Under the pieces are notes generated by a model that made no database searches, was not told where the DNA came from, and saw only the letters and a program-made list of their open reading frames with translations. The translations under genes were made by a program, and so were the position numbers. DNA of 58,439 nt, from positions 1 through 58,439 of the IMG/VR virus record IMGVR_UViG_3300034091_000288. One strand, given 5' to 3'. This document shows positions 27,213 through 55,065 of the stretch, in pieces (positions within the stretch are counted from its first letter, which is position 1; every line of letters starts with the position of its first letter). Origin of the DNA: a virus. Its lineage: Duplodnaviria; Caudoviricetes.

Positions 27213-27289
27213 TGGAGCTGCTGAGTGGACTCGAACCACCGACCCCCTGCTTACGAGGCAGGCGCTCTAACCGACTGAGCTACAGCAGC
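27213..27289 (-). tRNA. tRNA-Thr(CGT)
   Basis: Full cloverleaf: GCTGCTG/CAGCAGC acceptor, loop CTCGTAA, TTCGAGT T-loop, encoded CCA. Confidence 0.97.
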
Positions 27290-27314: not shown

Positions 27315-27914
27315 TCAACACGGATCAACACACCTGCCGTAATGCGACACGCGAAACCAGCATTGACATCTGGCACAAAGATGCTTCCCGGCGCTCGCCT
27401 CGTATTTTGCCTGACAGTGCGGACATCGAACGATGAACCCGGGCCCGCCACAAGTGGCCGCGAAAACCAAGGCTCCCATCAAGAAAAGACCGGCAATTAT
27501 AAATATCATCGCTGTCGCTACAGTTCGAGCCGGTCGAGCAAGTTGTGGGCAAAGGCCAGGATTGCCTCGAACTTGTTGTTCTGCTCCTGGAGCTTTTGCG
27601 CCAAGGGCGCGGGCGCATCCACACTGCACCTTGCCCGTTTCGCCCAACACGGACTTATAACAGTACCCGTCGTTGGCCTCAGCATAGACGACCTTGGACT
27701 TCACCATCTCGATACAGGTGCGCTTCGCCAGGGCGAGGGTGGGAAACTTCTCGCTGCCGCCGGTGCCAAGCACCTTGAAGGCCGCCCTCACCTGATAACT
27801 CGGAAAGCGGCGCAGGGTTTCGAACCAGGAGCCCTCGACGGTCTCCGCGATGTGCGCCAGCGGGTAGGCGTCCACCAGGGCGCGGAACGCGTCATGGAAT
27901 TCACCCTGCGTCAC
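27315..27914 (-). CDS. Initiator partner (helicase loader/inhibitor-like N-terminus) with TM + Zn-ribbon tail
   Basis: Overlaps initiator stop; W...L..F...V..A...KFPT pattern. Confidence 0.5.
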   Translation of the reverse strand: MTQGEFHDAFRALVDAYPLAHIAETVEGSWFETLRRFPSYQVRAAFKVLGTGGSEKFPTLALAKRTCIEMVKSKVVYAEANDGYCYKSVLGETGKVQCGCARALGAKAPGAEQQVRGNPGLCPQLARPARTVATAMIFIIAGLFLMGALVFAATCGGPGFIVRCPHCQAKYEASAGKHLCARCQCWFRVSHYGRCVDPC

Positions 27915-28723
27915 TGGATCACCTTGGCGTCTTCCTCGGCATAGCGCTCCAGGCGCTTGGCGTAGGCTTCGAGTTTCGCCTTCGGGCTCACCACTTCCAG
28001 GATGGCCGGATCAAACTTGTCGAAGTTCGCGCAGAAGTACCGCAGGGAACCGCCTTGCTTCAAGTGGAACGGATCGTCCGTCGTGACGTATCCGTCCCAG
28101 TGCGTGCAGAAAGTTTCGATGGACAGATCACCTTTGCGGCGGAACAGAGCGGCGAGCTGGACGAAGTCGGCTTGCGTCCAATTCGGTTTCTGCCCGCCGT
28201 GCTGGTCCTGGTACCTCGAAAAAGCATAGTCGCGGCAAACCACCAGCGGGCTTGCGCTGCTCGGTTTGTGAGCAGCGCCTTCTTGTTCTTCTAAGTACTT
28301 TTCTTCTTTATAGCGGCCACTTTGGTCCGCGCTTTTTGGCCACTTTGGTCCGCTTTCGCGGCCACTTTGGTCCGCTGTGGCCACTTTGGTCCGCTGGCCA
28401 CTTTGGTCCGCAGCCCAGCGCTCATAGTCCTTCTGCAACCCCAACCGCGGGCATTCTCCGGGCGGCCCGGTGCGCTCCACGATCTGGGCGTCGATCAGGG
28501 CTTTAAGTTCCCGGCGCAGCGTTCGCGGGACTAACCCCGTGAGCCGAGCTAGGTCGTGGGCAGAGAGCGGCGCTGTTTTCCGTCCGCCATTGCGGCCATA
28601 GCATTCGCGGATCACCACCAGCAAGATTCGAAATTGGGCGCCGTTCAGCGGCATCCGGGCCAGGGCTTCGAGCAATTCATTCGCGATGCGCGAGAAACCG
28701 TGTTCAAGCTGGACATCGGCCAT
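27911..28723 (-). CDS. Replication initiator (lambda O-like N-terminus)
   Basis: GFSRIANELLEALARMPLNGAQFRILLVVIRECYG; internal iterons; GGAGG RBS. Confidence 0.88.
   Translation of the reverse strand: MADVQLEHGFSRIANELLEALARMPLNGAQFRILLVVIRECYGRNGGRKTAPLSAHDLARLTGLVPRTLRRELKALIDAQIVERTGPPGECPRLGLQKDYERWAADQSGQRTKVATADQSGRESGPKWPKSADQSGRYKEEKYLEEQEGAAHKPSSASPLVVCRDYAFSRYQDQHGGQKPNWTQADFVQLAALFRRKGDLSIETFCTHWDGYVTTDDPFHLKQGGSLRYFCANFDKFDPAILEVVSPKAKLEAYAKRLERYAEEDAKVIQ
28315..28411. repeat. Five 16-bp iterons, putative origin
   Basis: GGCCACTTTGGTCCGC at 28315, 28338, 28360, 28379, 28396; AT-rich tract 28281-28312 adjacent. Confidence 0.9.
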
Positions 28724-28776
28724 CTCAGCCTCCAAGTCTCAAAGTGGAAAACTCTACTTGTGCGTGAGGGAATGCC

Positions 28777-38218: not shown

Positions 38219-38239
38219 ACAATGTTAGGAGGTAGTAGG

Positions 38240-39022
38240 ATGCAGCCTACTCTGACTTTTCCCGCCCGCCTGTCCGAACGCTGGCGCGGTCACCAGCTCC
38301 GCGACTTCATCGGCTTGGTGCGGCCCAAGGCGGTCTTGACGAACTTTCTGCGCGCCCCCTGGCCGGAAGCCTTCCTGTTTCTCGGCCCGACCGGGGTGGG
38401 TAAAACCACGATGGCCCTGGCGCTGGCGGAGTTGCTGCCCGCCGAACTGCGCCAAATCCCCTCCCGGTCCTGCGACCTGGAGACGCTCGATCAGGCCGTG
38501 CGCGGCTGCCATCACGTCCCCTGGAACGCCCGCTTCCACATGCTCCTGGTGGACGAAGCCGAACAGATCACCCGCGATGCGCAGGCGCGTTTCCTTTCCC
38601 TGCTGGACGCCACGGCGTGGCCGCCCGCCACGATCTTCATCTTTACCGCCAACCGCACCGACACCTTCGAGCCCCGCTTCTTGTCCCGGCTCAAGACCCT
38701 GCCCTTCACCACCGAAGAGGTTTCCCGCGCTTTGCCCGCCTTCCTGCGCCGCGTGGCGCGCCGGGAGCATTATCACGCCATCGACATCCGTAAGTGTATC
38801 CCTGAAAACGGCAACGTGCGCGACGCGCTGAACCGCCTGGAAATGGAAGCCCTGGCGGAAGGCGTCGTGGACGCCCATCCCGCCGTGGAGTGGGAGCGCT
38901 ACAAGTCCGCCCACCTGTGGCACTGCTGTGTCTGCGCCGGGTCGATCAAGCCCGGCACCACTTTCCTGATCGCCGGCGAGCAAGCCTGCCATACCGCCTG
39001 CAAACCCAAAGGAGGATCTTAG
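38240..39022 (+). CDS. Clamp-loader-like AAA+ ATPase with C-terminal Zn finger
   Basis: GPTGVGKTT, LVDEAE, FTAN, LSRL, GNVRDALNRLE. Confidence 0.85.
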   Translation: MQPTLTFPARLSERWRGHQLRDFIGLVRPKAVLTNFLRAPWPEAFLFLGPTGVGKTTMALALAELLPAELRQIPSRSCDLETLDQAVRGCHHVPWNARFHMLLVDEAEQITRDAQARFLSLLDATAWPPATIFIFTANRTDTFEPRFLSRLKTLPFTTEEVSRALPAFLRRVARREHYHAIDIRKCIPENGNVRDALNRLEMEALAEGVVDAHPAVEWERYKSAHLWHCCVCAGSIKPGTTFLIAGEQACHTACKPKGGS

Positions 39023-39024
39023 TC

Positions 39025-40251
39025 ATGCCCGAACCCGAAGAAGTAAAAGTCAATCCGACCACCCCGCCCCCGGAACCCGTCAAGACCGTGGGCCCGCCCC
39101 CGGAGCCTAAACCCACGCCCTTCGAACTGACCGTGGACCGCGACGCTTTCCTCGACGAATTGGGGCTCGCCGCATGGTGCGCGGAGAAGAGGGCCACGCA
39201 GCCCATTCTTTCCGCCGTGCTGCTCACCCTGCAACCGCAAGAGAAGAAGAAGTGGCTGGCGCTCCAGACCACCGATCTCGAAGTCGCCTTTGCCACAAGG
39301 CTCCCGATCACCGCCTCCACCGGCAGTGGCCGCGTGGCCGTGGACGCCCAACTCCTGCTGAGCGCCTGCAATGCCGTCACGTCCGACACCCTGCGCCTCA
39401 CCTTCTCGGGGACCGCCTTCACCCTGGACGCCGGCAACGCCCACTTCGAATTGCCCACGTTCAACCCCGCCAACTTTCCCGTGCTGCCCGAGCGTCCCGG
39501 CGGCGCGGTCGCCCTGGCGGCCGAGCCGCTCGTCGCCGCCATCGAACACACCCGCTACGGCGTGTCCGCGGAACCCAACCGCTACACCATGAACGGAGCG
39601 TTGCTGGTGATCGGCGCCGCTACCAACAAACTCAAGATGGTCGCCACGGACGGCCATCGGATGCCGATCTACGAGCACCCGGTCAAGATCGACAAGAAGG
39701 CTCCGGATCTCCAACTCATCGTGCCCGTCCCCATGCTCTCGCTCTTGCCCTCGGCCCTGGCGGACGCCAGCACGGTTGCGCTCGCCTACAACGAAGCCCA
39801 TCTGTTTTTCAGCGCAGGCAAGCGGCAGATGGCCGTGCGCCGCATGATGGGGCAGTTCCCGCAGTACGAGCACGTCCTGCCCACCGACTTGCCCGTGCGC
39901 ATGGAGTGCGACCGCAAGGAACTGGTCGCCTGCCTGCGCCGCGTCGCCCTGGTCGCCGACGAACGCTCGAACGGGGTGAGGCTCGAGTTTCACCCGAAAT
40001 CGCTTGTCATCACCACGCACAGCGACGCGGGAAGCTCGACGGATAAACTCGCCGCTGCCACCACGGGGCTGACAGAGCCGCTCATGGTGGGATTCGATCT
40101 GCGCTATCTGCTGGATTTTGTCACGAGCGCGCGCACGTCCCGCGTGGCCCTCTCGGTGAAAGCAAAGGATCTGGCGTGCCGCTTCGACATCGTGCCCGAG
40201 GAAGGAGTGGACTACCAGTTGTTGTGCGTCATCATGCCGCTCAGGTATTGA
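39025..40251 (+). CDS. dnaN: DNA polymerase III beta sliding clamp
   Basis: TTDLE, MVATDGHRM, GQFPQYEHVLP, GFDLRYLLD, VIMPLR. Confidence 0.95.
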   Translation: MPEPEEVKVNPTTPPPEPVKTVGPPPEPKPTPFELTVDRDAFLDELGLAAWCAEKRATQPILSAVLLTLQPQEKKKWLALQTTDLEVAFATRLPITASTGSGRVAVDAQLLLSACNAVTSDTLRLTFSGTAFTLDAGNAHFELPTFNPANFPVLPERPGGAVALAAEPLVAAIEHTRYGVSAEPNRYTMNGALLVIGAATNKLKMVATDGHRMPIYEHPVKIDKKAPDLQLIVPVPMLSLLPSALADASTVALAYNEAHLFFSAGKRQMAVRRMMGQFPQYEHVLPTDLPVRMECDRKELVACLRRVALVADERSNGVRLEFHPKSLVITTHSDAGSSTDKLAAATTGLTEPLMVGFDLRYLLDFVTSARTSRVALSVKAKDLACRFDIVPEEGVDYQLLCVIMPLRY

Positions 40252-40276
40252 CCCGTGGCTAGAGAGTGGCTATAGT
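40248..40276 (+). promoter_or_regulatory. Promoter of RHH gene with two inverted TAGCC boxes
   Basis: TTGACC-17-TATAGT; GGCTA at 40257 and 40268. Confidence 0.75.
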
Positions 40277-40313
40277 GTGTGGGCCGGAACCCCGGCCCAC
40301 CAAGGAGGTTGCT

Positions 40314-40541
40314 GTGAGAGAGAAACGCAAGAAGATCGCCCGGACGGCGCCGCAGAGCGCCTACATCCGCTTCATGCCGGAAGAGTGGACGCTCATCCAG
40401 GATGTGCTCGCCCGCCGCATGGAGGAATGGCGCAAGGACCCGCGCAACACGCCCAAGCCGAGCCTGACCAGTTTCGTGGCGGTGGCTGCCGTCGAAGCCG
40501 CGAAGCGGGCGTTGGGCCATCCGGTGGAAGTCCATGCCTAG
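40314..40541 (+). CDS. Ribbon-helix-helix regulator (TacA/DUF1778-like pattern)
   Basis: AAGGAGG-GTG; strand SAYIRF, helix PEEWTLIQ, helix SLTSFVAVAAVEAAKRAL. Confidence 0.7.
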   Translation: MREKRKKIARTAPQSAYIRFMPEEWTLIQDVLARRMEEWRKDPRNTPKPSLTSFVAVAAVEAAKRALGHPVEVHA

Positions 40542-40647
40542 CTCGCGGGGCGGCGCTGCCACGCCGCCCTGGGGCACCGTAACGCTGGAGTCGCCTGTCC
40601 CGCCCCCACCCATGTAGCCTACTGTAGCCTATTGCTAACTCCTTTGT

Positions 40648-40702
40648 TTTCAACACGTTAGTATAGCCGCAATCCCCTAAAAGTACCCGTAAGTTATTGA
40701 AA
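40648..40702. promoter_or_regulatory. Two inverted IHF-like sites
   Basis: TTTCAACACGTTA (+) and TTTCAATAACTTA (-) vs WATCAANNNNTTR. Confidence 0.45.
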
Positions 40703-40720
40703 ACAAAGCACTTTTAGTGC

Positions 40721-40777
40721 TTGCAATCCGTCCCGTCTATAGCTATACTATAGCCTCATGCTATCCACTATATAGCA
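40721..40777 (+). promoter_or_regulatory. Major early promoter with four phased boxes
   Basis: TTGCAA-17-TATACT; TAGCT 40740, TAGCC 40751, TATCC 40762, TAGCA 40773. Confidence 0.8.
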
Positions 40778-41515
40778 TGTATGTTCTTTGACAAACGAAC
40801 GGGACGGCAGGACACCGAGGGACCATCTGAGTACGCCTGAAAAACCCGTAAACCCGGGATGGCGGAGGGCGATCTAACCCAGTGAAACGCGCCGTTCAGT
40901 TCCAAGTTTCCAGCCAGTCGCACAATCCCCATAGCCTTGATGGTAGGGGATGAGCCGCTCGCCGCGTTGCAAGTGTGCTAAGCCCACACTTCATGTCCGC
41001 CGCCTAGCCTCATGGTAGCGGGAAAGGACGGCAACCCCAGGTTGCATTGAACGCTTGAGTGCCGCGACTGTCGCTTGGAGAGCCACCCCGAATCTGCTGT
41101 GCGTAGCCTTAATGGTAGCGCGGCACACGTCGGGGGGGTTCCGTTCCATACAAAACTGAGTAAGCGCGAAACCTAATCCGCATCGCGTCCACGCGCAAGC
41201 GAACCGCTCTGCCCTAGCCTTATGGTAGGCAACGGTAGGCCAGATGCGCAACGGGGTTTCGAGTGACCGCTGAAAAGTGTCGATCACCGTCCGCCGTCGC
41301 GGGTTTGTCCGAGCCTCCATCGAGGGCCTGTTCAACGCGACGCTCCGAACGCGCACAATTTTACCCCTTATGCTTTCCGTCGTCCGCAGGCAACGTCTGC
41401 GCGGCTGTAGTACCGGCAGGTCTCCAACGCAGCCTGACCGCACTGTGACCCGTTGCAAACTGGCAAGCGGAAAGAACGAGGGGATCTCGCACGCGCCGCC
41501 CTCGCCCGGGCGGAG
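40756..41515 (+). ncRNA. Large multi-domain structured RNA with four conserved hairpin caps
   Basis: No credible ORF; many nested helices, some with G-U pairs; repeated TAGCCT-N1-2-ATGGTA caps. Confidence 0.7.
40782..40794 (+). promoter_or_regulatory. rrn-type boxA antitermination site
   Basis: TGTTCTTTGACAA vs TGCTCTTTAACA; preceded by hairpin CATGCTAT/ATAGCATG. Confidence 0.65.
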
Positions 41516-41521
41516 CTGTGC

Positions 41522-41818
41522 CTACCCGACACGGTTGTCGCCCGCCGCCTGGCGCTGGGCAATCGAACCGCCGATCTCGCGACTCCGCAGAAATGTTTCG
41601 ATGGATTCCCGTCTATAATAAACGGCTCGCCCGAGCTTGATGAACGGGAGTCCACGATCGGGCTCCCCCTCCCTCACGAGGCGCCGCATCTTGCGAAGAT
41701 AGGCCACGGTGAACGGGTACTCGCGTTGCACGTCGCGCTCCCGGAGCAACCCCTTGGGCTGACTCTCCTGCACAGCCCCGCAGGGGCTGGCCTTCGGGAT
41801 GTTCTTGTGTCTCGTCAT
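41522..41818 (-). CDS. Xis/AlpA-like HTH protein
   Basis: GGAGG RBS; LLRERDV...YLRKMR..GLPFIKLGRAVYYRRESIETFL. Confidence 0.8.
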   Translation of the reverse strand: MTRHKNIPKASPCGAVQESQPKGLLRERDVQREYPFTVAYLRKMRRLVREGEPDRGLPFIKLGRAVYYRRESIETFLRSREIGGSIAQRQAAGDNRVG

Positions 41819-41870
41819 TGTGTGCCTCCGTAGAGCGGCATCATCAAGGGTCAACTTTGAGCCGTCAAGA

Positions 41871-41928
41871 CGCACGAGTTTCGGGCGTTAATACGTGCGC
41901 GCACGAGTTTCGGGCCTTATCTCGTGCG
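41871..41928. repeat. Tandem 29-bp repeats with palindromic ends
   Basis: CGCACGAGTTTCGGGCgTTAataCGTGCG / CGCACGAGTTTCGGGCcTTAtctCGTGCG. Confidence 0.85.
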
Positions 41929-42129
41929 CGTTATCAATGTGTAAACATCAGTGCAGGGTTAGCGGAGACTCTTCGGGTTCAAGTGGTGACGGGAGACAAA
42001 AGACCTCAATTGGTTGTAGGGGATCTCGAGATGGCGCGCGATCTGCCCCTGTTTCCAGCCTTGCGCCAGCAGACCGCGGACGGTTTCCAGGAGGCGCCGG
42101 TTCGTCTGATTCCAAAAAGGAGTCCAACC

Positions 42130-42420
42130 GTGAAAACCAGAGGTTCTGCGCGCACCGCGCCCGCCGATCTCAAGCGCATCAACTCCATGTTCAACGCCAT
42201 GTCAGACCTGCTCGGCTATCTGCACGCCCGCTGGCAGGACGAGTCCGAGTACGAGAACATCGCTGAGTACGCCAAGGCCGTTCGCAAGAATCTGCCCAAA
42301 GGTTTCAAGCTGCTCCGCATGATGAAGCGCCCCTTTGGCTTCCAGTTCTCGATTGGCACGCCTGCCGTCTACCGCATGACCGCCACGAACAACGCCGCCG
42401 AATGGCTCCGCCTCTTCTAG
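42130..42420 (+). CDS. Phage hypothetical protein
   Basis: AAGGAG-GTG; RWQDESEYE..MKRPFGF. Confidence 0.7.
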   Translation: MKTRGSARTAPADLKRINSMFNAMSDLLGYLHARWQDESEYENIAEYAKAVRKNLPKGFKLLRMMKRPFGFQFSIGTPAVYRMTATNNAAEWLRLF

Positions 42421-42516
42421 TTCGCACTTTCCAAACACCTGCCCGTCTGTTTCGCAAGTAGTCAACTGCCACCAGCAGGAACGTCGCCGTCAAATTCAAA
42501 ACAAAGGAGTCCCACC

Positions 42517-42762
42517 GTGGAAAACCAACAACACGCCCAACTCCCGAATGCCTTGAGCCTGCGCGATTGCGCGTGGAAGGCTCTGGACATCTACAACCAG
42601 CATGAGAACGCCGCCGAAATCGACATGATCTTCGGGGCCGGCCCCTGGGCCAGCGAAAGCCATGCGCGGCTGGCGGACAGGGAAATTAAAGCCCTGGCCG
42701 AAGCCAACGGGTTCACGTTCGAGGAAGTGGACCTGGAAATGGCCATCGCGGTCGTGAACTGA
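42517..42762 (+). CDS. Hypothetical protein
   Basis: AAGGAG-GTG. Confidence 0.7.
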   Translation: MENQQHAQLPNALSLRDCAWKALDIYNQHENAAEIDMIFGAGPWASESHARLADREIKALAEANGFTFEEVDLEMAIAVVN

Positions 42763-42771
42763 GGAGGCGCC

Positions 42772-42990
42772 ATGACGAAACCGCAGACCTGCCGCCACTG
42801 CAAAAAGACGTTCATCCCGCAGCCGGGCAAGCCGGGGTTCATCAATGAATGCCCTGACTGCCTGCGACCGCCCGATCTGCCTACACCTGCGCCGGTTGCG
42901 CAAGTGCGCAAGCGCCGCACGCCGATGGACCGGGAATTGCGCCGGTTCCTCCGCGATCTGCGCATCATTCTCGGAGGGCGCCATGCGTAA
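42772..42990 (+). CDS. Small Zn-ribbon protein
   Basis: CRHC...CPDC; GAGGAGG. Confidence 0.7.
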   Translation: MTKPQTCRHCKKTFIPQPGKPGFINECPDCLRPPDLPTPAPVAQVRKRRTPMDRELRRFLRDLRIILGGRHA

Positions 42991-43447
42991 ATCCGTCCGT
43001 GCTGAATTGCACTTGCTCCGCGAAATTGCCCACGATCTGCTGCGGGGCAAGACCTGCTACTTCTGCCATGAGCCGCTGGTCGCCGACGTGGACAGCCGCT
43101 TTGGGAACAAAGACAACTCCCCGCTCCACGTCGAACTGACGGTTCACCATTTGAATGACAATCACGAAGATAACCGCCCGGCCAACCGCCGCTGGACCCA
43201 CGCCGCCGGGCACCGCGCCTATCACGCGCAGCGCACCTTTCACAAGCGCAGCGCGGCCCAGGCCCGCAGGCTCGCCGGGGCTCGCTGCATGAGCCTCGAT
43301 CTCTCGCAGTTCCACCGCTACCGTTGCGGCACCGCCAAGCGCTGCGAAGCCTGCGGGGGCACCATCCCACCCCGCACCGTCTATTACTACTCCCGCAAAG
43401 GCCGCACGATCTGCGCGGGCTGCAAGCAAGCTGCCACCAGTAACTAA
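42983..43447 (+). CDS. HNH-like nuclease with C-terminal Zn finger
   Basis: CYFC...VHHLNDNHEDNRPAN...H..YH. Confidence 0.65.
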   Translation: MRKSVRAELHLLREIAHDLLRGKTCYFCHEPLVADVDSRFGNKDNSPLHVELTVHHLNDNHEDNRPANRRWTHAAGHRAYHAQRTFHKRSAAQARRLAGARCMSLDLSQFHRYRCGTAKRCEACGGTIPPRTVYYYSRKGRTICAGCKQAATSN

Positions 43448-50477: not shown

Positions 50478-51275
50478 ATGTCCAAAGTCTGGAAAGGCAC
50501 ACTCACTTTTGGTTTGATCTCGTTTCCCTGCTACTTCGAAACCGGAGCCCGCGAAGAGGGCATCGGCCTGCACCTGTATCACGCGAAATGCAAAGGCCCG
50601 GTCAAGCGGCCCAACTTCTGCCCGGAATGCAACCGCCAGCCGGAAAGCGAAGAAGTCGAGAAGGGTTACGAACTGGACACCGGCGGCTACCTGCCGATCA
50701 CCAAGGAGGATCTCGACTCCATCGCCGTCGAAAACGAGAAGGTCATCGAAGTCATCGCCACGGTTCCGGCCAAAGACGTCGACCCCGTTTATTTCAACGA
50801 AAGCTACTGGCTCCTGCCGGACAAGCCCGGTCGGAATGCCTACGGCGTGCTGCTGGCCGGGCTCATCAAGGACAAGTCCATCGCCATCGCCCGCCTCACC
50901 AAAAACCAGCGCGAGCACGTCCTGGCCCTGCGGCCTTCCGGCAAAGGCATCTGCATCCACTACCTCTATTACGGTGCGGAAGTCACCCTGCCCCCGGACT
51001 ACGAAGCGCTGCAACTGCCCGCCGTCAAGCCCGAAGAAGCGGAACTGGCTCGCCAGCTACTCGAAAACATGCGCACCAAATTCGAGCCCGACAAATTCGA
51101 GGATGGCTACCAGAAGCGCCTCGCCGCCTTGATCGAACAAAAGATGAAAGGCGGCAAGCCCAAGAAGGCCGCGCCGGCGAAACCCAAAGCGCAACCTGCG
51201 CCCGACATGCTCGCGGCCCTGCAAGCCAGCCTTGCGGCCAATAAGCGGAAATTCCGCGTGGAAGAAAGGGGGTGA
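50478..51275 (+). CDS. ku: Ku DNA end-binding protein
   Basis: VWKGTLTFGLI, KGYE, VDPVYFNESYWL, FEPDKFEDGY, DMLAALQASL. Confidence 0.95.
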   Translation: MSKVWKGTLTFGLISFPCYFETGAREEGIGLHLYHAKCKGPVKRPNFCPECNRQPESEEVEKGYELDTGGYLPITKEDLDSIAVENEKVIEVIATVPAKDVDPVYFNESYWLLPDKPGRNAYGVLLAGLIKDKSIAIARLTKNQREHVLALRPSGKGICIHYLYYGAEVTLPPDYEALQLPAVKPEEAELARQLLENMRTKFEPDKFEDGYQKRLAALIEQKMKGGKPKKAAPAKPKAQPAPDMLAALQASLAANKRKFRVEERG

Positions 51276-52296: not shown

Positions 52297-52498
52297 GACC
52301 ATTCTCTTCTCCGAACTCAAGCGGCTGTCGATTGTCAATAGGCCGCCGAGTCCGGTGGACGCCCTGGGCCATCGCATGACTTGGGTCGGCTTCACCTGGG
52401 TGGACGAAGGCGAGGCTCATGGGGACGAAGTGCTCGTGGTGGATGACCCGGTACCGGAAAGGAGGAAGAACCGTGCGATACACCGTAACCGAAAGTGA
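52277..52498 (+). CDS. Hypothetical protein
   Basis: AAGGAG-GTG; WVGFTWVDEG. Confidence 0.6.
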   Translation: MKKPKRKTILFSELKRLSIVNRPPSPVDALGHRMTWVGFTWVDEGEAHGDEVLVVDDPVPERRKNRAIHRNRK

Positions 52499-53540
52499 GC
52501 CGTTCACGGTCATGGACAGCGACACGCCCGTCATCAGCTATCCCGACCGCGCCGACGCTGAACGCTTTGCGGCCCGGCTCAACCGCAAAGTGCAGAAGGT
52601 TGCCGACGTGCTCCCGGCCATGCCCACCGCCGCCGCCTTGCGCATGGCCGACGAAATTGACCGGCAGCGCAGCGCCCCACCCGAAATCAACATTCCCGAC
52701 TGCGAATTGCTCGAAGAGATCGACCGGCCCCGGGCTGAGCGCCTGCTCGCCAACGACGCCTACTGGCTGCAACTCAAGGCCAATGGCAAACGCTGCCGCA
52801 TCCTCAAGGCCCAGGGAAAGATCACGGGGCTCAATAAACGGGGCGAGCGCATCGCCCTGCCACCAGCCCTGGCCGCCTTCACCCAAGCCCTGCCCTTCGC
52901 CAGCCTCTTGATCGACGGCGAACTGATGCCGGGCGGCCACTACATCGCCTACGAACTGCTGGCCCAAAGCGGCATCGAGGATCTCCCCACCCGCGCTTAC
53001 TCGTTCCGCTTTTACGAGTTGCTCACCCTGCTCAAGGACGCGCCGGCCGAAGTGATCGAGCCCATCCAGACCTGGTTCACGGAGGGCGCGAAGAAGGAAG
53101 GGCTCGCTGAACTGGAAGCCGCCAAGGTCGAGGGCGCCGTGTTCAAGAAAGCCGATGCGCCGTTCCGCCCCGGCCGCAACGGCCAGCATTTGAAGTACAA
53201 ATTCGTCAAAAGCCTCACCGCGAAGATCATCCCGAAAAACGCGAAGGATGAAGCCAAGGGGCATGAGTCCGCCGCCCTGGGGCTCTCGAACGGCAATGGG
53301 AAGTGGGTGGAAGTCGCCCACGCCTCGCTCATCGGCAAGATCAAACTCGTGCCCGCTGCGCAGCGCTCCGGCTGGCAGTGGCTCGGGAAGCACGTCGAAG
53401 TCGAATACCTGATGGGCTACGGCACGAAGGCCGCGCCGCGGCTTGTGCAACCTCGCATCGTCGCCGTGCGCGACGATACGACCGACCGGGACTGCGCGCT
53501 TGCCCAGGTGCAGTTCCACCAGGGACAGGGGGAAAAATGA
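52473..53540 (+). CDS. ATP-dependent DNA ligase
   Basis: Motifs KANGKR, IDGEL, YIAYELL, EGAVFK, LKYK; C-terminal VEVEY..P...VRDD. Confidence 0.85.
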   Translation: MRYTVTESEPFTVMDSDTPVISYPDRADAERFAARLNRKVQKVADVLPAMPTAAALRMADEIDRQRSAPPEINIPDCELLEEIDRPRAERLLANDAYWLQLKANGKRCRILKAQGKITGLNKRGERIALPPALAAFTQALPFASLLIDGELMPGGHYIAYELLAQSGIEDLPTRAYSFRFYELLTLLKDAPAEVIEPIQTWFTEGAKKEGLAELEAAKVEGAVFKKADAPFRPGRNGQHLKYKFVKSLTAKIIPKNAKDEAKGHESAALGLSNGNGKWVEVAHASLIGKIKLVPAAQRSGWQWLGKHVEVEYLMGYGTKAAPRLVQPRIVAVRDDTTDRDCALAQVQFHQGQGEK

Positions 53541-54092: not shown

Positions 54093-54574
54093 AAGTCAGA
54101 ACCGAATTTGGTCTCGCGCGCACTGAATGTGCGTGCCCGCACTGCACACAGTTTTGCCTTTTCATGCCGGGCTTCCTCGTCCCGTCTGACTTGGAACGCA
54201 TGGTCCCGGCCGGGGCAGACCCGCTCGCCTGGGCAGAGACGAACCTGCTGGCTTCGCCTGGGGCCCTGGTCATGCAGGGTCGCCATTTATTCCGAATCCC
54301 CACGCTCGTTCCGGCGGTTCGGGCAGACGGCTCTTGCATTAACTTCGACGGCGCTTGCACCATCCATGCCATAGCGCCCTTCGGCTGCGCTTTCCCGTCG
54401 TGCTCGGACCCGCCAGAGTTTGAGGCGGCAGCCGCAGAGGCTTTGCGGACCATCCTGTGCGAACACTCCGATCACGCCACGCTTTACGCACGGGTCTGGA
54501 ACCACCTGTGGGACATCGGCCGACGCCAACTCCCACCGGAAGAGCTACGCAAGCGGGAAAGGACACAACCTTGA
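54089..54574 (+). CDS. YkgJ-like Cys-cluster protein
   Basis: C.CPHC..FC...CINF.GACTIH..APFGC. Confidence 0.65.
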   Translation: MKVRTEFGLARTECACPHCTQFCLFMPGFLVPSDLERMVPAGADPLAWAETNLLASPGALVMQGRHLFRIPTLVPAVRADGSCINFDGACTIHAIAPFGCAFPSCSDPPEFEAAAAEALRTILCEHSDHATLYARVWNHLWDIGRRQLPPEELRKRERTQP

Positions 54575-55065
54575 AAGTCATCTTCCTCGACATCGACGGC
54601 GTGCTGAACAACGCCGCTTGTTTTCTCACCGGACCGGGCGGCCTTCGGGCGAGGCCGGACCCGCTGTGCATCCAGGCCCTCAACCGCATCCTGCGCGCCA
54701 CGCGGGCCAAGATCGTCATCAGCAGCGCGTGGCGGAAGCACCTGACTGAACACCAACTCGCGGCCTTGCTCGCCAAGTGGAAAGTCGCCGGGCGCCTGAT
54801 CGGCACCACGCCCTGGGTCATCTGCGCGCCCCGTGGAGCCGAAATCCGGGCGTGGCTCGAGCAGCATCCGCGCGTCCGCCAGTTCGTCATCCTCGACGAC
54901 GATGCGGACATGGAGGATCTGCACCCCCACCTAGTCCTCACCCGCTTTGCCCGTGGCCTCACCGAAGCCCAGGCGACGCGGGCCATCCAAATCTTAGAAA
55001 GGAGGAACTATGCCCCAAGTCATCGAAATGCACGCGGGGTCCAACGCCGTTTGCGATTTCTGTAG
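54571..55065 (+). CDS. HAD-domain phosphatase (RNA-repair-associated type)
   Basis: KVIFLDIDGVLN, IVISSAWR, RGAEIRAWL, FVILDD. Confidence 0.88.
   Translation: MKVIFLDIDGVLNNAACFLTGPGGLRARPDPLCIQALNRILRATRAKIVISSAWRKHLTEHQLAALLAKWKVAGRLIGTTPWVICAPRGAEIRAWLEQHPRVRQFVILDDDADMEDLHPHLVLTRFARGLTEAQATRAIQILERRNYAPSHRNARGVQRRLRFL

What the first reader, a model, noticed from the sequence alone, without database searches (positions are those of the whole stretch)
40756..41515. ~750-nt ornate ncRNA at the head of the early operon
Seen: in a gene-dense genome this stretch has no RBS-led ORF but has nested long-range helices: GACGGC(40803)/GCCGTT(40891), TCCAAG(40901)/CTTGGA(41074), CAGTCGC(40915)/GCGACTG(41064), CCCCGA/TCGGGG around cap 3, CGAAACCT(41167)/GGGTTTCG(41254), CGCATC(41179)/GATGCG(41243), CGTCGCG/CGCGACG (41295-41342), CTTTCCG(41373)/CGGAAAG(41468). 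G-U pairs favour a + strand RNA. Established: large ornate RNAs such as GOLLD and ROOL occur in phages. I do not recognise this one as a known family. Alternative roles are a cis-acting antiterminator or a scaffold.
Basis: partly seen in the sequence, partly recalled or inferred. Interest (0 to 1): 0.82.

Follow-up and report, generated by a model that had tools for sequence, protein, structure and literature searches.

The report
Candidate four-hairpin phage noncoding RNA
A roughly 1-kb gene-free stretch of a peat-soil phage (probable host: Acidobacteriota) looks like it makes a large folded RNA carrying four copies of one hairpin tip, but no relative or transcript was found, so it remains an unproven candidate.

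Summary
The observation largely holds. Window 40441-41520 is the longest stretch of the window without codon periodicity. It holds no ORF with a family match. A sigma-70-like promoter (40721-49) points into it.

Its core, 40850-41306, folds far better than shuffles as + strand RNA (z -4.9, 0 of 150). The - strand gives z -1.8, and DNA parameters give -2.3. A 25-nt closing helix (21 of 25 complementary) encloses the core.

The strongest evidence is internal. Four hairpins (40932, 41005, 41104, 41215) share one cap, NUA-GCC-(4-5 nt)-GGU-A. Their stems have different sequences but are all paired (26 of 26 cells).

No Rfam family matches, even at E<=10. I found no homolog in phage, plasmid, IMG/VR, JGI-metagenome or 401 Acidobacteriota-genome searches. 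The population in four peat metagenomes shows no difference from the window in this stretch. Covariation between genomes and transcription are therefore untested.

The element lies between convergent genes, not at the head of the early operon. Its 3' third (41307-41515) is not unusually stable on the + strand, and 2 of the 8 listed helices are not in the predicted ensemble.

Best reading (about 0.5): an orphan, new kind of large phage ncRNA with four equivalent binding or assembly modules.

The parts
40613..40632 (+). Two tandem 10-bp repeats, TGTAGCCTAC and TGTAGCCTAT, in the AT-rich region upstream. They carry the same TAGCCT hexamer as the caps. They may be a DNA-level protein site.
   Evidence: (D11).
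40640..40709 (.). Perfect 12-bp inverted repeat, CTTTGTTTTCAA ... TTGAAAACAAAG, 46 bp apart. It is the core of the 24-nt arms of repeat I2. Operator-like or a large hairpin.
   Evidence: I2.
40721..40749 (+). Sigma-70-like promoter, TTGCAA-17 nt-TATACT (9 of 12 matches). It implies a start near 40756-40758. A degenerate motif copy, TAGCCTCATGCTA (40751-40763), overlaps the start.
   Evidence: Consensus match only; not shown to be active.
40757..40779 (+). 8-bp hairpin at the predicted 5' end, followed by a weak U-run. It is either a 5'-terminal stabilising hairpin or the terminator of the upstream operon.
   Evidence: pair probability 0.97.
40850..41306 (+). Structured core. The closing helix 40854-40874 / 41282-41302 encloses three sub-domains that carry the four cap hairpins.
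   Evidence: I1: 25 nt, 84% complementary; z -4.88; closing helix probability 0.99-1.0; 21 of 25 matches; 0 of 200 shuffles reach it, maximum 19.
40925..40951 (+). Cap hairpin 1: stem AUCCCC/GGGGAU; cap AUA-GCC-UUGAU-GGU-A.
   Evidence: probability 0.96-0.97.
40995..41029 (+). Cap hairpin 2: stems GUCC/GGAC and CCGC/GCGG; cap CUA-GCC-UCAU-GGU-A.
   Evidence: probability 0.77-0.98.
41080..41141 (+). Cap hairpin 3 on a long arm: GAGCC/GGUUC, CCCCGA/UCGGGG, and UGCUGUGC/GCGCGGCA with two U-G pairs; cap GUA-GCC-UUAAU-GGU-A.
   Evidence: probability 0.95-0.99.
41168..41260 (+). Sub-domain holding a small hairpin and cap hairpin 4 (41203-41236: ACCG/CGGU, UGCC/GGCA; cap CUA-GCC-UUAU-GGU-A).
   Evidence: outer helices 0.97-0.98; hairpin 4 itself 0.53-0.59.
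41364..41483 (.). Long hairpin, CCCCUU..CUUUCCGU / GCGGAAAG..GAGGGG. This part is no more stable than shuffles on the + strand but is on the - strand, so it may belong to the 3' end of the HTH_17 transcript.
   Evidence: I4; 41307-41520: + z -0.24; - z -2.53.
40266..40541 (+). Upstream flanking gene. A 91-aa ORF with a likely GTG start at 40314 behind AGGAGG. Last gene of the clamp-loader/DnaN operon. No family match.
41522..41821 (-). Downstream flanking gene, convergent with the element. HTH_17 / excisionase-like regulator, with GGAGG before its ATG.
   Evidence: HTH_17 E 1.2e-4, below Pfam's cut-off; phrog_66 E 0.0016.

Best explanation
The stretch encodes a + strand, non-coding, highly folded RNA of at least about 550 nt. 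It is probably started at the sigma-70-like promoter at 40721-49. Its 457-nt core is closed by a long-range helix.

The core displays four copies of one structural module at the tips of four arms. Each module is a stem of free sequence, a 3x1 internal loop (NUA opposite A), a 3-bp helix (GCC with GGU, including a kept G-U pair) and a 4-5-nt loop (U..AU).

The stems differ completely while the cap is kept. I therefore infer that the cap is the functional unit. It would be a repeated docking site for one ligand, either an oligomeric RNA-binding protein of phage or host, or another copy of the RNA. The RNA would then work as a multivalent scaffold, sponge or self-assembling particle.

Shown here:
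- absence of coding signal;
- the motif statistics;
- stem complementarity with compensatory differences among the four copies;
- strand-specific excess thermodynamic stability.

Inferred:
- that the stretch is transcribed;
- where the RNA ends;
- that the caps bind something, and what that is.
For: - Non-coding.
- Promoter-like site directly upstream, in an AT-rich region.
- Core fold as RNA: + strand z -4.88 (0 of 150 shuffles), - strand z -1.84. The four-hairpin part alone gives + z -2.95 (1 of 150) and - z +0.12.
- With DNA parameters the four-hairpin part is not unusual on either strand (z -0.88 and -0.48). The core drops to z -2.28.
- Most core helices have pair probability above 0.9.
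- The long-range 25-nt helix has 21 of 25 matches. None of 200 shuffles reached this; the maximum was 19.
- The cap motif TAGCCTN{1,3}ATGGTA occurs 4 times, all on the + strand, and 0 times in 100 shuffles.
- Each copy is flanked by at least 4 bp of stem. The chance of that is about 0.022 per site in this window.
- In the alignment of the four hairpins, 26 of 26 cells pair. Three of the 4 outer-stem pairs change on both sides. Only 2 of 500 shuffles reach the covariation score, and slid registers give 23-58% paired.
- The middle of the apical loop varies (UG, C, UA, U) while its flanks are fixed. This argues for selection on the cap rather than recent duplication.
- A lambda-type replication origin lies elsewhere in the phage.
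Against: - No evidence of transcription. None of the 6 listed runs that hold the stretch is an RNA run.
- No homolog was found, so there is no covariation between genomes.
- Contigs of the four peat metagenomes laid show no difference from the window in the element.
- The paired-cell test was run on a structure derived from the same four sequences, which favours it (caveat).
- No intrinsic terminator was found on the + strand, so the 3' end is undefined.
- The hairpin at the predicted start is itself terminator-like.
- Seven of the window's ten + strand TAGCCT hexamers lie in 40615-41215. Three of them are upstream of, or at, the promoter and outside any hairpin. This also fits a DNA-binding protein.
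- Raw G-U counts do not separate the strands.
- No RNA-binding protein was identified nearby.
Confidence: 0.5

Rival explanations
1. It is a DNA-level (or single-stranded-DNA) element. On this reading it is an array of same-orientation binding sites (TAGCCT..ATGSTA) for a phage DNA-binding protein, such as the adjacent 91-aa protein or the HTH_17 protein. It would serve regulation, a secondary or single-strand initiation site, packaging or partition. The hairpins would form in single-stranded DNA or as cruciforms.
For: - Seven of ten + strand TAGCCT hexamers cluster in 600 bp, against 1 on the - strand of the whole window.
- Two copies are tandem at a 10-bp spacing in an AT-rich region. One overlaps the -10/+1 of the predicted promoter.
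- Replication genes lie directly upstream, and a ParB-domain protein is encoded in the window.
- The core is still more stable than shuffles with DNA parameters (z -2.28, 2 of 100).
Against: - A double-stranded binding site gives no reason for a different inverted repeat around each of four sites.
- With DNA parameters the four-hairpin part is ordinary on both strands. As RNA, the - strand of that part is ordinary (z +0.12), which argues against cruciforms.
- Site spacings of 73, 99 and 111 nt are irregular.
- A lambda-type origin already exists at 28.3 kb: five iterons inside a Phage_rep_O gene next to an AT-rich run.
- There is no DnaA-box cluster: 25 matches against 28.8 expected.
Confidence: 0.15
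2. It is a cis-acting leader. A + strand transcript from 40721-49 folds into an RNA that modifies the polymerase that made it (processive antitermination). That polymerase then reads antisense through the HTH_17 gene and on into the long + strand operon from about 42150 to beyond 57800.
For: - The promoter points that way, and no + strand terminator-like site was found between 40780 and 42600.
- All genes from 42517 onward are on the + strand.
- Convergent transcription could also silence the HTH_17 regulator.
Against: - A complete, oppositely oriented gene with its own promoter-like site and a repeat-bearing control region lies between the element and the operon.
- As far as I recall, known RNA-only antiterminators such as HK022 put are about 70 nt with two stem-loops, not four repeated caps in about 460 nt.
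- Nothing here tests polymerase binding.
Confidence: 0.1
3. The functional transcript is the minus strand. The region would be the long 3' UTR of the HTH_17 mRNA, or an antisense RNA, ending at the terminator-like hairpin at 40722-40706.
For: - A minus-strand terminator-like site (AAGCACTAAAAGTGCTT followed by a T-run) lies at 40722-40706.
- The 41307-41520 part is unusually stable only on the - strand (z -2.53, 1 of 150).
Against: - The core is much less unusual on the - strand (z -1.84), and the four-hairpin part not at all (z +0.12).
- The kept G-U pair of all four caps, and the two U-G pairs of hairpin 3, become C-A mismatches on the - strand.
Confidence: 0.07
4. It has no function. On this reading it is decayed or junk spacer DNA whose GC-rich sequence folds well by accident, and the four motif copies are leftovers of local duplications.
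For: - It is a singleton with no homolog and no expression data.
- Long predicted structures are common in GC-rich DNA.
- The whole-region z-score is only -2.3.
Against: - Duplication leftovers would keep the stems as well as the caps. Here the stems are unrelated in sequence yet all paired.
- 0 of 150 shuffles match the core's stability, and 0 of 200 reach the closing helix.
- The phage is otherwise tightly packed, and this is its longest non-coding stretch in the window.
Confidence: 0.1

Closest known systems
GOLLD and ROOL, the large ornate RNAs of phages and prophages
   Same: Both are several hundred nucleotides of non-coding, elaborately folded RNA, encoded by a phage, with no known protein partner. 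From passages of bioRxiv 10.1101/2024.12.08.627333: both families are encoded in phages and prophages. They assemble into multimeric cages through repeated kissing-loop and A-minor contacts. Four identical caps could serve such contacts.
   Different: No match to any Rfam model, even at E<=10. The element is not next to tRNA genes; the only tRNA is about 13.5 kb away. GOLLD and ROOL are often near tRNA islands. It has no family of homologs and no covariation. Repeated identical hairpin caps are not, to my recollection, a described feature of either family.
CsrB/RsmZ-type protein-sponge RNAs (recalled, not tested against a model)
   Same: The architecture matches: many hairpins whose stems differ but whose loops carry one short motif, so that the RNA binds several copies of one protein.
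   Different: The defining GGA loop motif is absent. Here the GG is paired inside the cap, and the exposed bases are NUA/A and U..AU. The four caps are also set in a closed 457-nt fold rather than strung as beads. No CsrA-like gene was seen in the window.
tRNA D-arm (the phage's own tRNA-Thr, 27213-27289)
   Same: The caps read UAGC-N4-5-UGGUAG. The tRNA-Thr D-arm region reads UAGC-N5-CGGUUAG. Eight columns are invariant in the five-sequence alignment.
   Different: The pairing differs. In the caps, GCC pairs with the GG-U that is loop sequence in a tRNA, and the outer stems pair with sequence 5' of UA. ARAGORN and Rfam find no tRNA or tRNA-like gene here. The likeness was noticed after the fact and may be chance.
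Iteron-type phage origin (lambda ori in gene O)
   Same: Repeated same-orientation motif copies, an AT-rich neighbourhood and nearby replication genes.
   Different: The spacing is irregular and long, and each copy has its own flanking inverted repeat. A textbook lambda-type origin, with five tandem iterons inside a Phage_rep_O gene, is present elsewhere in this phage.

Membership tests
Any Rfam 15 family (4227 models) | Score at or above the family's gathering threshold against its covariance model. | tested here: not met
   the only hit in the window is the tRNA at 27216-27289; no match at E<=10 in 40400-42000 on either strand.
GOLLD / ROOL | Location beside tRNA genes or islands in phages and prophages. 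The source paper says this is frequent, not obligatory. | tested here: not met
   the single tRNA-Thr is at 27213-27289, about 13.5 kb away. Passages of 10.1101/2024.12.08.627333.
GOLLD / ROOL (and any bona fide structured ncRNA class) | Secondary structure supported by covariation across homologs. | not testable with these tools
   No homolog found. The population shows no difference in the element. Only paralogous covariation among the four internal hairpins could be counted.
CsrB/RsmZ-type sponge RNA | Several hairpins with one shared loop motif and differing stems. | tested here: met
CsrB/RsmZ-type sponge RNA | GGA (A/U-GGA) exposed in the loops. The motif is recalled, not taken from a call. 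| tested here: not met
   the loops are UUGAU, UCAU, UUAAU and UUAU, and the GG is paired with CC.
Iteron-type replication origin | Tandem, regularly spaced direct repeats next to an AT-rich stretch and an initiator gene. | tested here: not met
   The caps are spaced 73, 99 and 111 nt. TRF finds only 1.9 copies of a 10-mer at 40613-40631. A true origin of this type is at 28313-28411 inside Phage_rep_O.
tRNA / tRNA-like RNA | Cloverleaf detectable by ARAGORN or the Rfam tRNA model. | tested here: not met
   Only a partial D-arm sequence likeness was seen.
Type III toxin-antitoxin RNA | Tandem near-identical repeats directly upstream of a toxin gene on the same strand. | tested here: not met
   no tandem array in 40633-41600; the next gene is on the opposite strand.
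Independent sRNA/ncRNA gene | Its own promoter and terminator. | tested here: inconclusive
   A promoter-like site is at 40721-49. No + strand terminator-like site lies downstream of 40780. These are consensus scans only.

The most novel reading that the evidence does not exclude
A previously unknown class of large phage RNA. Its closed 457-nt fold presents four identical, tRNA-D-arm-like caps as a multivalent platform. It would either trap an oligomeric host or phage factor that normally reads that part of tRNA, or let the RNA assemble with itself into a higher-order particle as GOLLD and ROOL do.
Probability: 0.12. Interest if true: 0.8.

Novelty: new variant of a known kind. Interest (0 to 1): 0.52.

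Why it matters
Large ornate RNAs of phages are few. As far as I recall, the known ones come mainly from Firmicutes, rumen and marine samples. Their function is still unknown (passages of 10.1101/2024.12.08.627333).

A new, unrelated example from a phage of Acidobacteriota, a dominant but poorly studied soil phylum, would widen that class. It has an unusually simple and testable design: four equivalent caps on arms of free sequence. That design gives a direct handle for finding the partner by pull-down, or for testing self-assembly by cryo-EM.

If it is instead a DNA-level site array, it marks a control region of a phage lineage with no cultured relative.

Tried and rejected
Homolog hunts that found nothing usable:
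- blastn of the element against 50,697 phage records and 72,556 plasmids: no match.
The only record with two matches, L010, is a CRESS-like Rep and capsid virus with tandem iterons and no protein likeness to the window.
- Two-cap pattern in IMG/VR: 5 stretches, each with one full motif, GC 0.31-0.46.
- Two-cap pattern in JGI metagenome contigs: 34 stretches. Thirty have a single copy of the looser cap pattern. Three (L137, L138, L150) have extra degenerate copies only. L136, with three full copies, is a 21-nt tandem repeat.
- Neighbouring proteins as single queries in IMG/VR: none.
- DnaN alignment A1 in IMG/VR: 68 loci, all <=33% identity.
- Clamp-loader alignment A2: 80 viral loci, and 51 genome loci of which 18 at 39-50% identity are 17 Acidobacteriota MAGs and one Verrucomicrobiia MAG. 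The best is 51% identity.
- Of the 55 best loci, 0 have a DnaN relative next door and 0 match the element by blastn or nhmmer.
- Repeats seen downstream of the clamp loader in L227 and L249 are repeated gene leaders, not cap hairpins.

Searches of Acidobacteriota genomes:
- DNA query in 401 genomes of the phylum: 25 genomes, with 20-45-nt matches only.
- Two 28-nt matches to 41036-41071 lie in unrelated contexts: a glycosyltransferase-like gene, and just upstream of an ORF I read by eye as LigD-like.
- Cap pattern in 401 genomes of the class: 79 genomes with a match, and among the 86 matches listed at most 3 per genome, on separate contigs. This is the level of the reversed-pattern control.
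- Clamp loader in 401 class genomes: 12 genomes, <=54% identity.

Closest relatives that I could not fetch:
- P0122 (69%) and P0002 (DnaN, 44%) lie on an 8.4-kb metagenome contig. P0123 (62%) lies on a 96.6-kb contig.

Expression and population:
- No RNA holder is listed among the 6 runs.
- Contigs of 4 peat metagenomes show 2 differences in 39000-43000, both outside the element.

Other ideas dropped:
- A target complementary to the caps elsewhere in the window: none beyond a few chance 9-10-mers.
- A DnaA-box cluster: none.
- A hidden protein gene.
- A tRNA-like fold.

Literature:
- Listings for 'Acidobacteria / prophage / structured RNA' and 'phage-encoded / noncoding RNA / stem-loops / sponge / conserved loop' showed nothing like this. 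I saw titles and the starts of abstracts only.
- Supplements were not consulted.

Full report
**Context.** The window is one IMG/VR virus record of 58,439 bases, estimated 58% complete, with about 64% GC. The same sequence is held by peat-metagenome runs. Its clamp-loader protein also occurs on a contig of 102,680 bases.
- Genes from 659 to 37954 are on the minus strand. They include terminase, portal and a Mu-F-like protein.
- A short + strand operon follows: a clamp-loader AAA+ protein (38222-39022), DnaN (39025-40251) and a 91-aa ORF (40266-40541).
- Then comes the stretch in question, and after it a minus-strand HTH_17/excisionase-like gene (41522-41821).
- Beyond a control region with direct repeats lie + strand genes up to 57838. 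They include an AAA+ protein, Ku, a ligase and a ParB-domain protein.
- Relatives of the clamp loader sit in 17 MAGs labelled Acidobacteriota, Terriglobia, Acidobacteriaceae, Acidiferrum or Angelobacter, and one Verrucomicrobiia MAG, at 39-50% identity. The nearest cellular DnaN proteins are from Terriglobia at about 33%. The host is therefore probably an acidobacterium.
- No cultured phage is close: DnaN <=29% and terminase <=33% identity.

- The stretch has no codon-position GC periodicity. The spread is <=0.13 between 40540 and 41500, against 0.28-0.37 in the flanking genes. It is the longest such stretch in the window, 40441-41520.
- The ORFs inside it match no Pfam or PHROG family. The longest, 155 aa on the minus strand, has one marginal hit (E 5.4e-4) among 1.84 billion representatives.
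Six are in the predicted fold with mean pair probability 0.63-0.99. Two have probability 0.0.
- The full 760 nt fold only modestly better than shuffles: + z -2.30, 1 of 20; - z -1.34, 3 of 20.
- The signal is concentrated in a 457-nt core, 40850-41306. The + strand gives z -4.88 (0 of 150) and the - strand z -1.84 (6 of 150).
- The 3' third, 41307-41520, is ordinary on the + strand (z -0.24) and unusual on the - strand (z -2.53). It may belong to the convergent HTH_17 transcript.

**Anatomy.**
- A 25-nt long-range helix (40850-40874 with 41282-41306, 21 of 25 complementary) closes the core. Its pair probability is 0.99-1.0. None of 200 shuffles reached 21 matches; the maximum was 19.
- Inside are three sub-domains with mostly high-probability helices.
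- The motif TAGCCT-N1-2-ATGGTA occurs four times (40932, 41005, 41104, 41215). All are on the + strand and nowhere else in the window, and 0 of 100 shuffles had any.
- Each copy is the tip of a hairpin. The order is: stem, 3-nt bulge NUA opposite a single A, a 3-bp helix GCC/GGU with a G-U pair, and a loop of 4-5 nt.
- The stems are unrelated in sequence (CCCC/GGGG, CCGC/GCGG, GUGC/GCGC, UGCC/GGCA for the inner four pairs), yet 26 of 26 cells pair. Three of four outer-stem pairs differ on both sides. Only 2 of 500 shuffles reach the observed score, and slid registers pair in 23-58% of cells.
- The structure was read from these same sequences, which favours it. An independent figure: a random site in this window has at least 4 flanking pairs with probability about 0.022.
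- The centre of the apical loop varies while its edges do not. Kept caps on free stems are what selection on a single-stranded structural module produces. Recent duplication would not produce this.

**RNA or DNA, and which strand?**
- With DNA energy parameters the four-hairpin part is ordinary on both strands (z -0.88, 15 of 100; z -0.48, 30 of 100). The core falls to z -2.28 (2 of 100).
- As RNA, the minus strand of the four-hairpin part is ordinary (z +0.12).
- The G-U pair kept in all four caps, and the two U-G pairs in hairpin 3, would be C-A mismatches on the other strand.
- Raw G-U counts in the two strand-specific folds are alike (15 of 150 against 14 of 156).
- A sigma-70-like site (TTGCAA-17-TATACT, 40721-49) lies in an AT-rich region just upstream. 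It would start the RNA at an 8-bp hairpin, 40757-79. That hairpin with its weak U-run could equally be the terminator of the DnaN operon.
- No + strand terminator-like site follows the core, so the 3' end is unknown.

**Evidence that pulls the other way.**
- Seven of the ten + strand TAGCCT hexamers of the window lie in 40615-41215. Three of them are outside any hairpin: two tandem 10-mers at 40613-32, and a one-mismatch motif copy over the -10/+1 of the promoter. This is what a DNA-binding protein site would look like, so a DNA-level role, or a protein that reads both, cannot be excluded.
- An origin of replication is less likely. The phage has a lambda-type origin elsewhere, with five iterons at 28313-28411 inside a Phage_rep_O gene (E 7.4e-15) beside an AT-rich run. 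There is no DnaA-box cluster either.

**Homologs and expression.**
- None found. The searches are listed under Tried and rejected: phage and plasmid records, IMG/VR, JGI metagenome contigs, loci around relatives of the neighbouring genes, and 401 + 401 sampled Acidobacteriota genomes.
- Clamp-loader relatives are common in acidobacterial prophages but are at most 54% identical. In the 55 best loci they have neither a DnaN neighbour nor the element.
- The closer relatives seen as proteins (69% and 62% clamp loader, 44% DnaN) lie on metagenome contigs that I could not fetch.
- The population in four peat metagenomes shows no difference from the window in the element.
- No RNA run holds the stretch.

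**Comparison with known things.**
- No Rfam family matches at the gathering score, or even at E<=10.
- In kind, the element resembles the large ornate phage RNAs GOLLD and ROOL. Those are phage-encoded, of unknown function, and self-assemble through repeated loop contacts (passages of bioRxiv 10.1101/2024.12.08.627333). It is not a member of either family, and it is not near tRNA genes.
- In design, it resembles sponge RNAs of the CsrB/RsmZ type, with many hairpins sharing one loop motif, but it lacks their GGA motif. That comparison is recalled from memory.
- The caps share UAGC...GGU(U)AG with the D-arm of the phage's own tRNA-Thr, with 8 invariant columns. The pairing differs and I noticed the likeness after the fact, so I keep it as a lead only.

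**Verdict.**
- This is a real and statistically unusual feature. It is most likely (about 0.5) an orphan, + strand, large structured ncRNA whose four identical caps are docking or assembly modules.
- Rivals: a DNA-level site array (0.15), a cis-acting leader or antiterminator (0.1), a minus-strand UTR (0.07) and no function (0.1).
- It would be a new variant of a known kind. Transcription, ends, partner and conservation are all unshown.

Noticed in passing
window 27911-28735 (-) and 28262-28411: A lambda-type replication origin. A Phage_rep_O gene (Pfam E 7.4e-15) carries five roughly 19-nt iterons (GGCCACTTTGGTCCGC) inside its coding sequence at 28313-28411. They encode repeated DQSG peptides and lie next to an AT-rich run.
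   Followed up: yes
window 54457-55065 (+): A protein with the HAD_SAK_2 domain of 'Swiss Army Knife' RNA-repair proteins (E 8e-32). It lies in the same + strand block as Ku (50478-51275) and an ATP-dependent ligase-like protein (52419-53540). This may be an RNA/DNA repair module.
   Followed up: no
window about 41869-41915: Two direct repeats, CGCACGAGTTTCGGGC. They lie between the promoter-like site of the minus-strand HTH_17 gene (41868-41840) and the + strand early genes. They are probably operators of a divergent switch.
   Followed up: no
window 40613-40632 and 40640-40709: Tandem TGTAGCCTAC/TGTAGCCTAT, and a perfect 12-bp inverted repeat CTTTGTTTTCAA / TTGAAAACAAAG. Both are in the AT-rich region between the 91-aa ORF and the predicted promoter. 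They are probably protein-binding sites.
   Followed up: partly
L010 (IMG/VR contig of 2163 bases), about 1735-1850: A CRESS-like virus (Rep with HUH/helicase motifs by eye, and an Arg-rich capsid) whose tandem iterons contain CCTAGCCTGATGGTAGG. This is the same 15-mer as the caps. There is no protein likeness to the window, so I take it as a coincidence of the pattern scan.
   Followed up: partly
L227 880-1620 and L249 6650-7620: In distant relatives, a 60-75-nt sequence is repeated in front of each of several small genes directly downstream of the clamp-loader gene. These are repeated promoter or leader units, not cap hairpins.
   Followed up: partly
window 38222-40251; loci L225-L260, L305-L323: The small phage clamp loader is widespread in acidobacterial prophages and peat or soil viral contigs (141 proteins at E<=1e-5). 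In 0 of the 55 relatives' loci examined is it followed by a DnaN gene as it is here.
   Followed up: partly
window 27213-27289 (-): The phage carries one tRNA-Thr (CGT), next to the replication-origin region.
   Followed up: no
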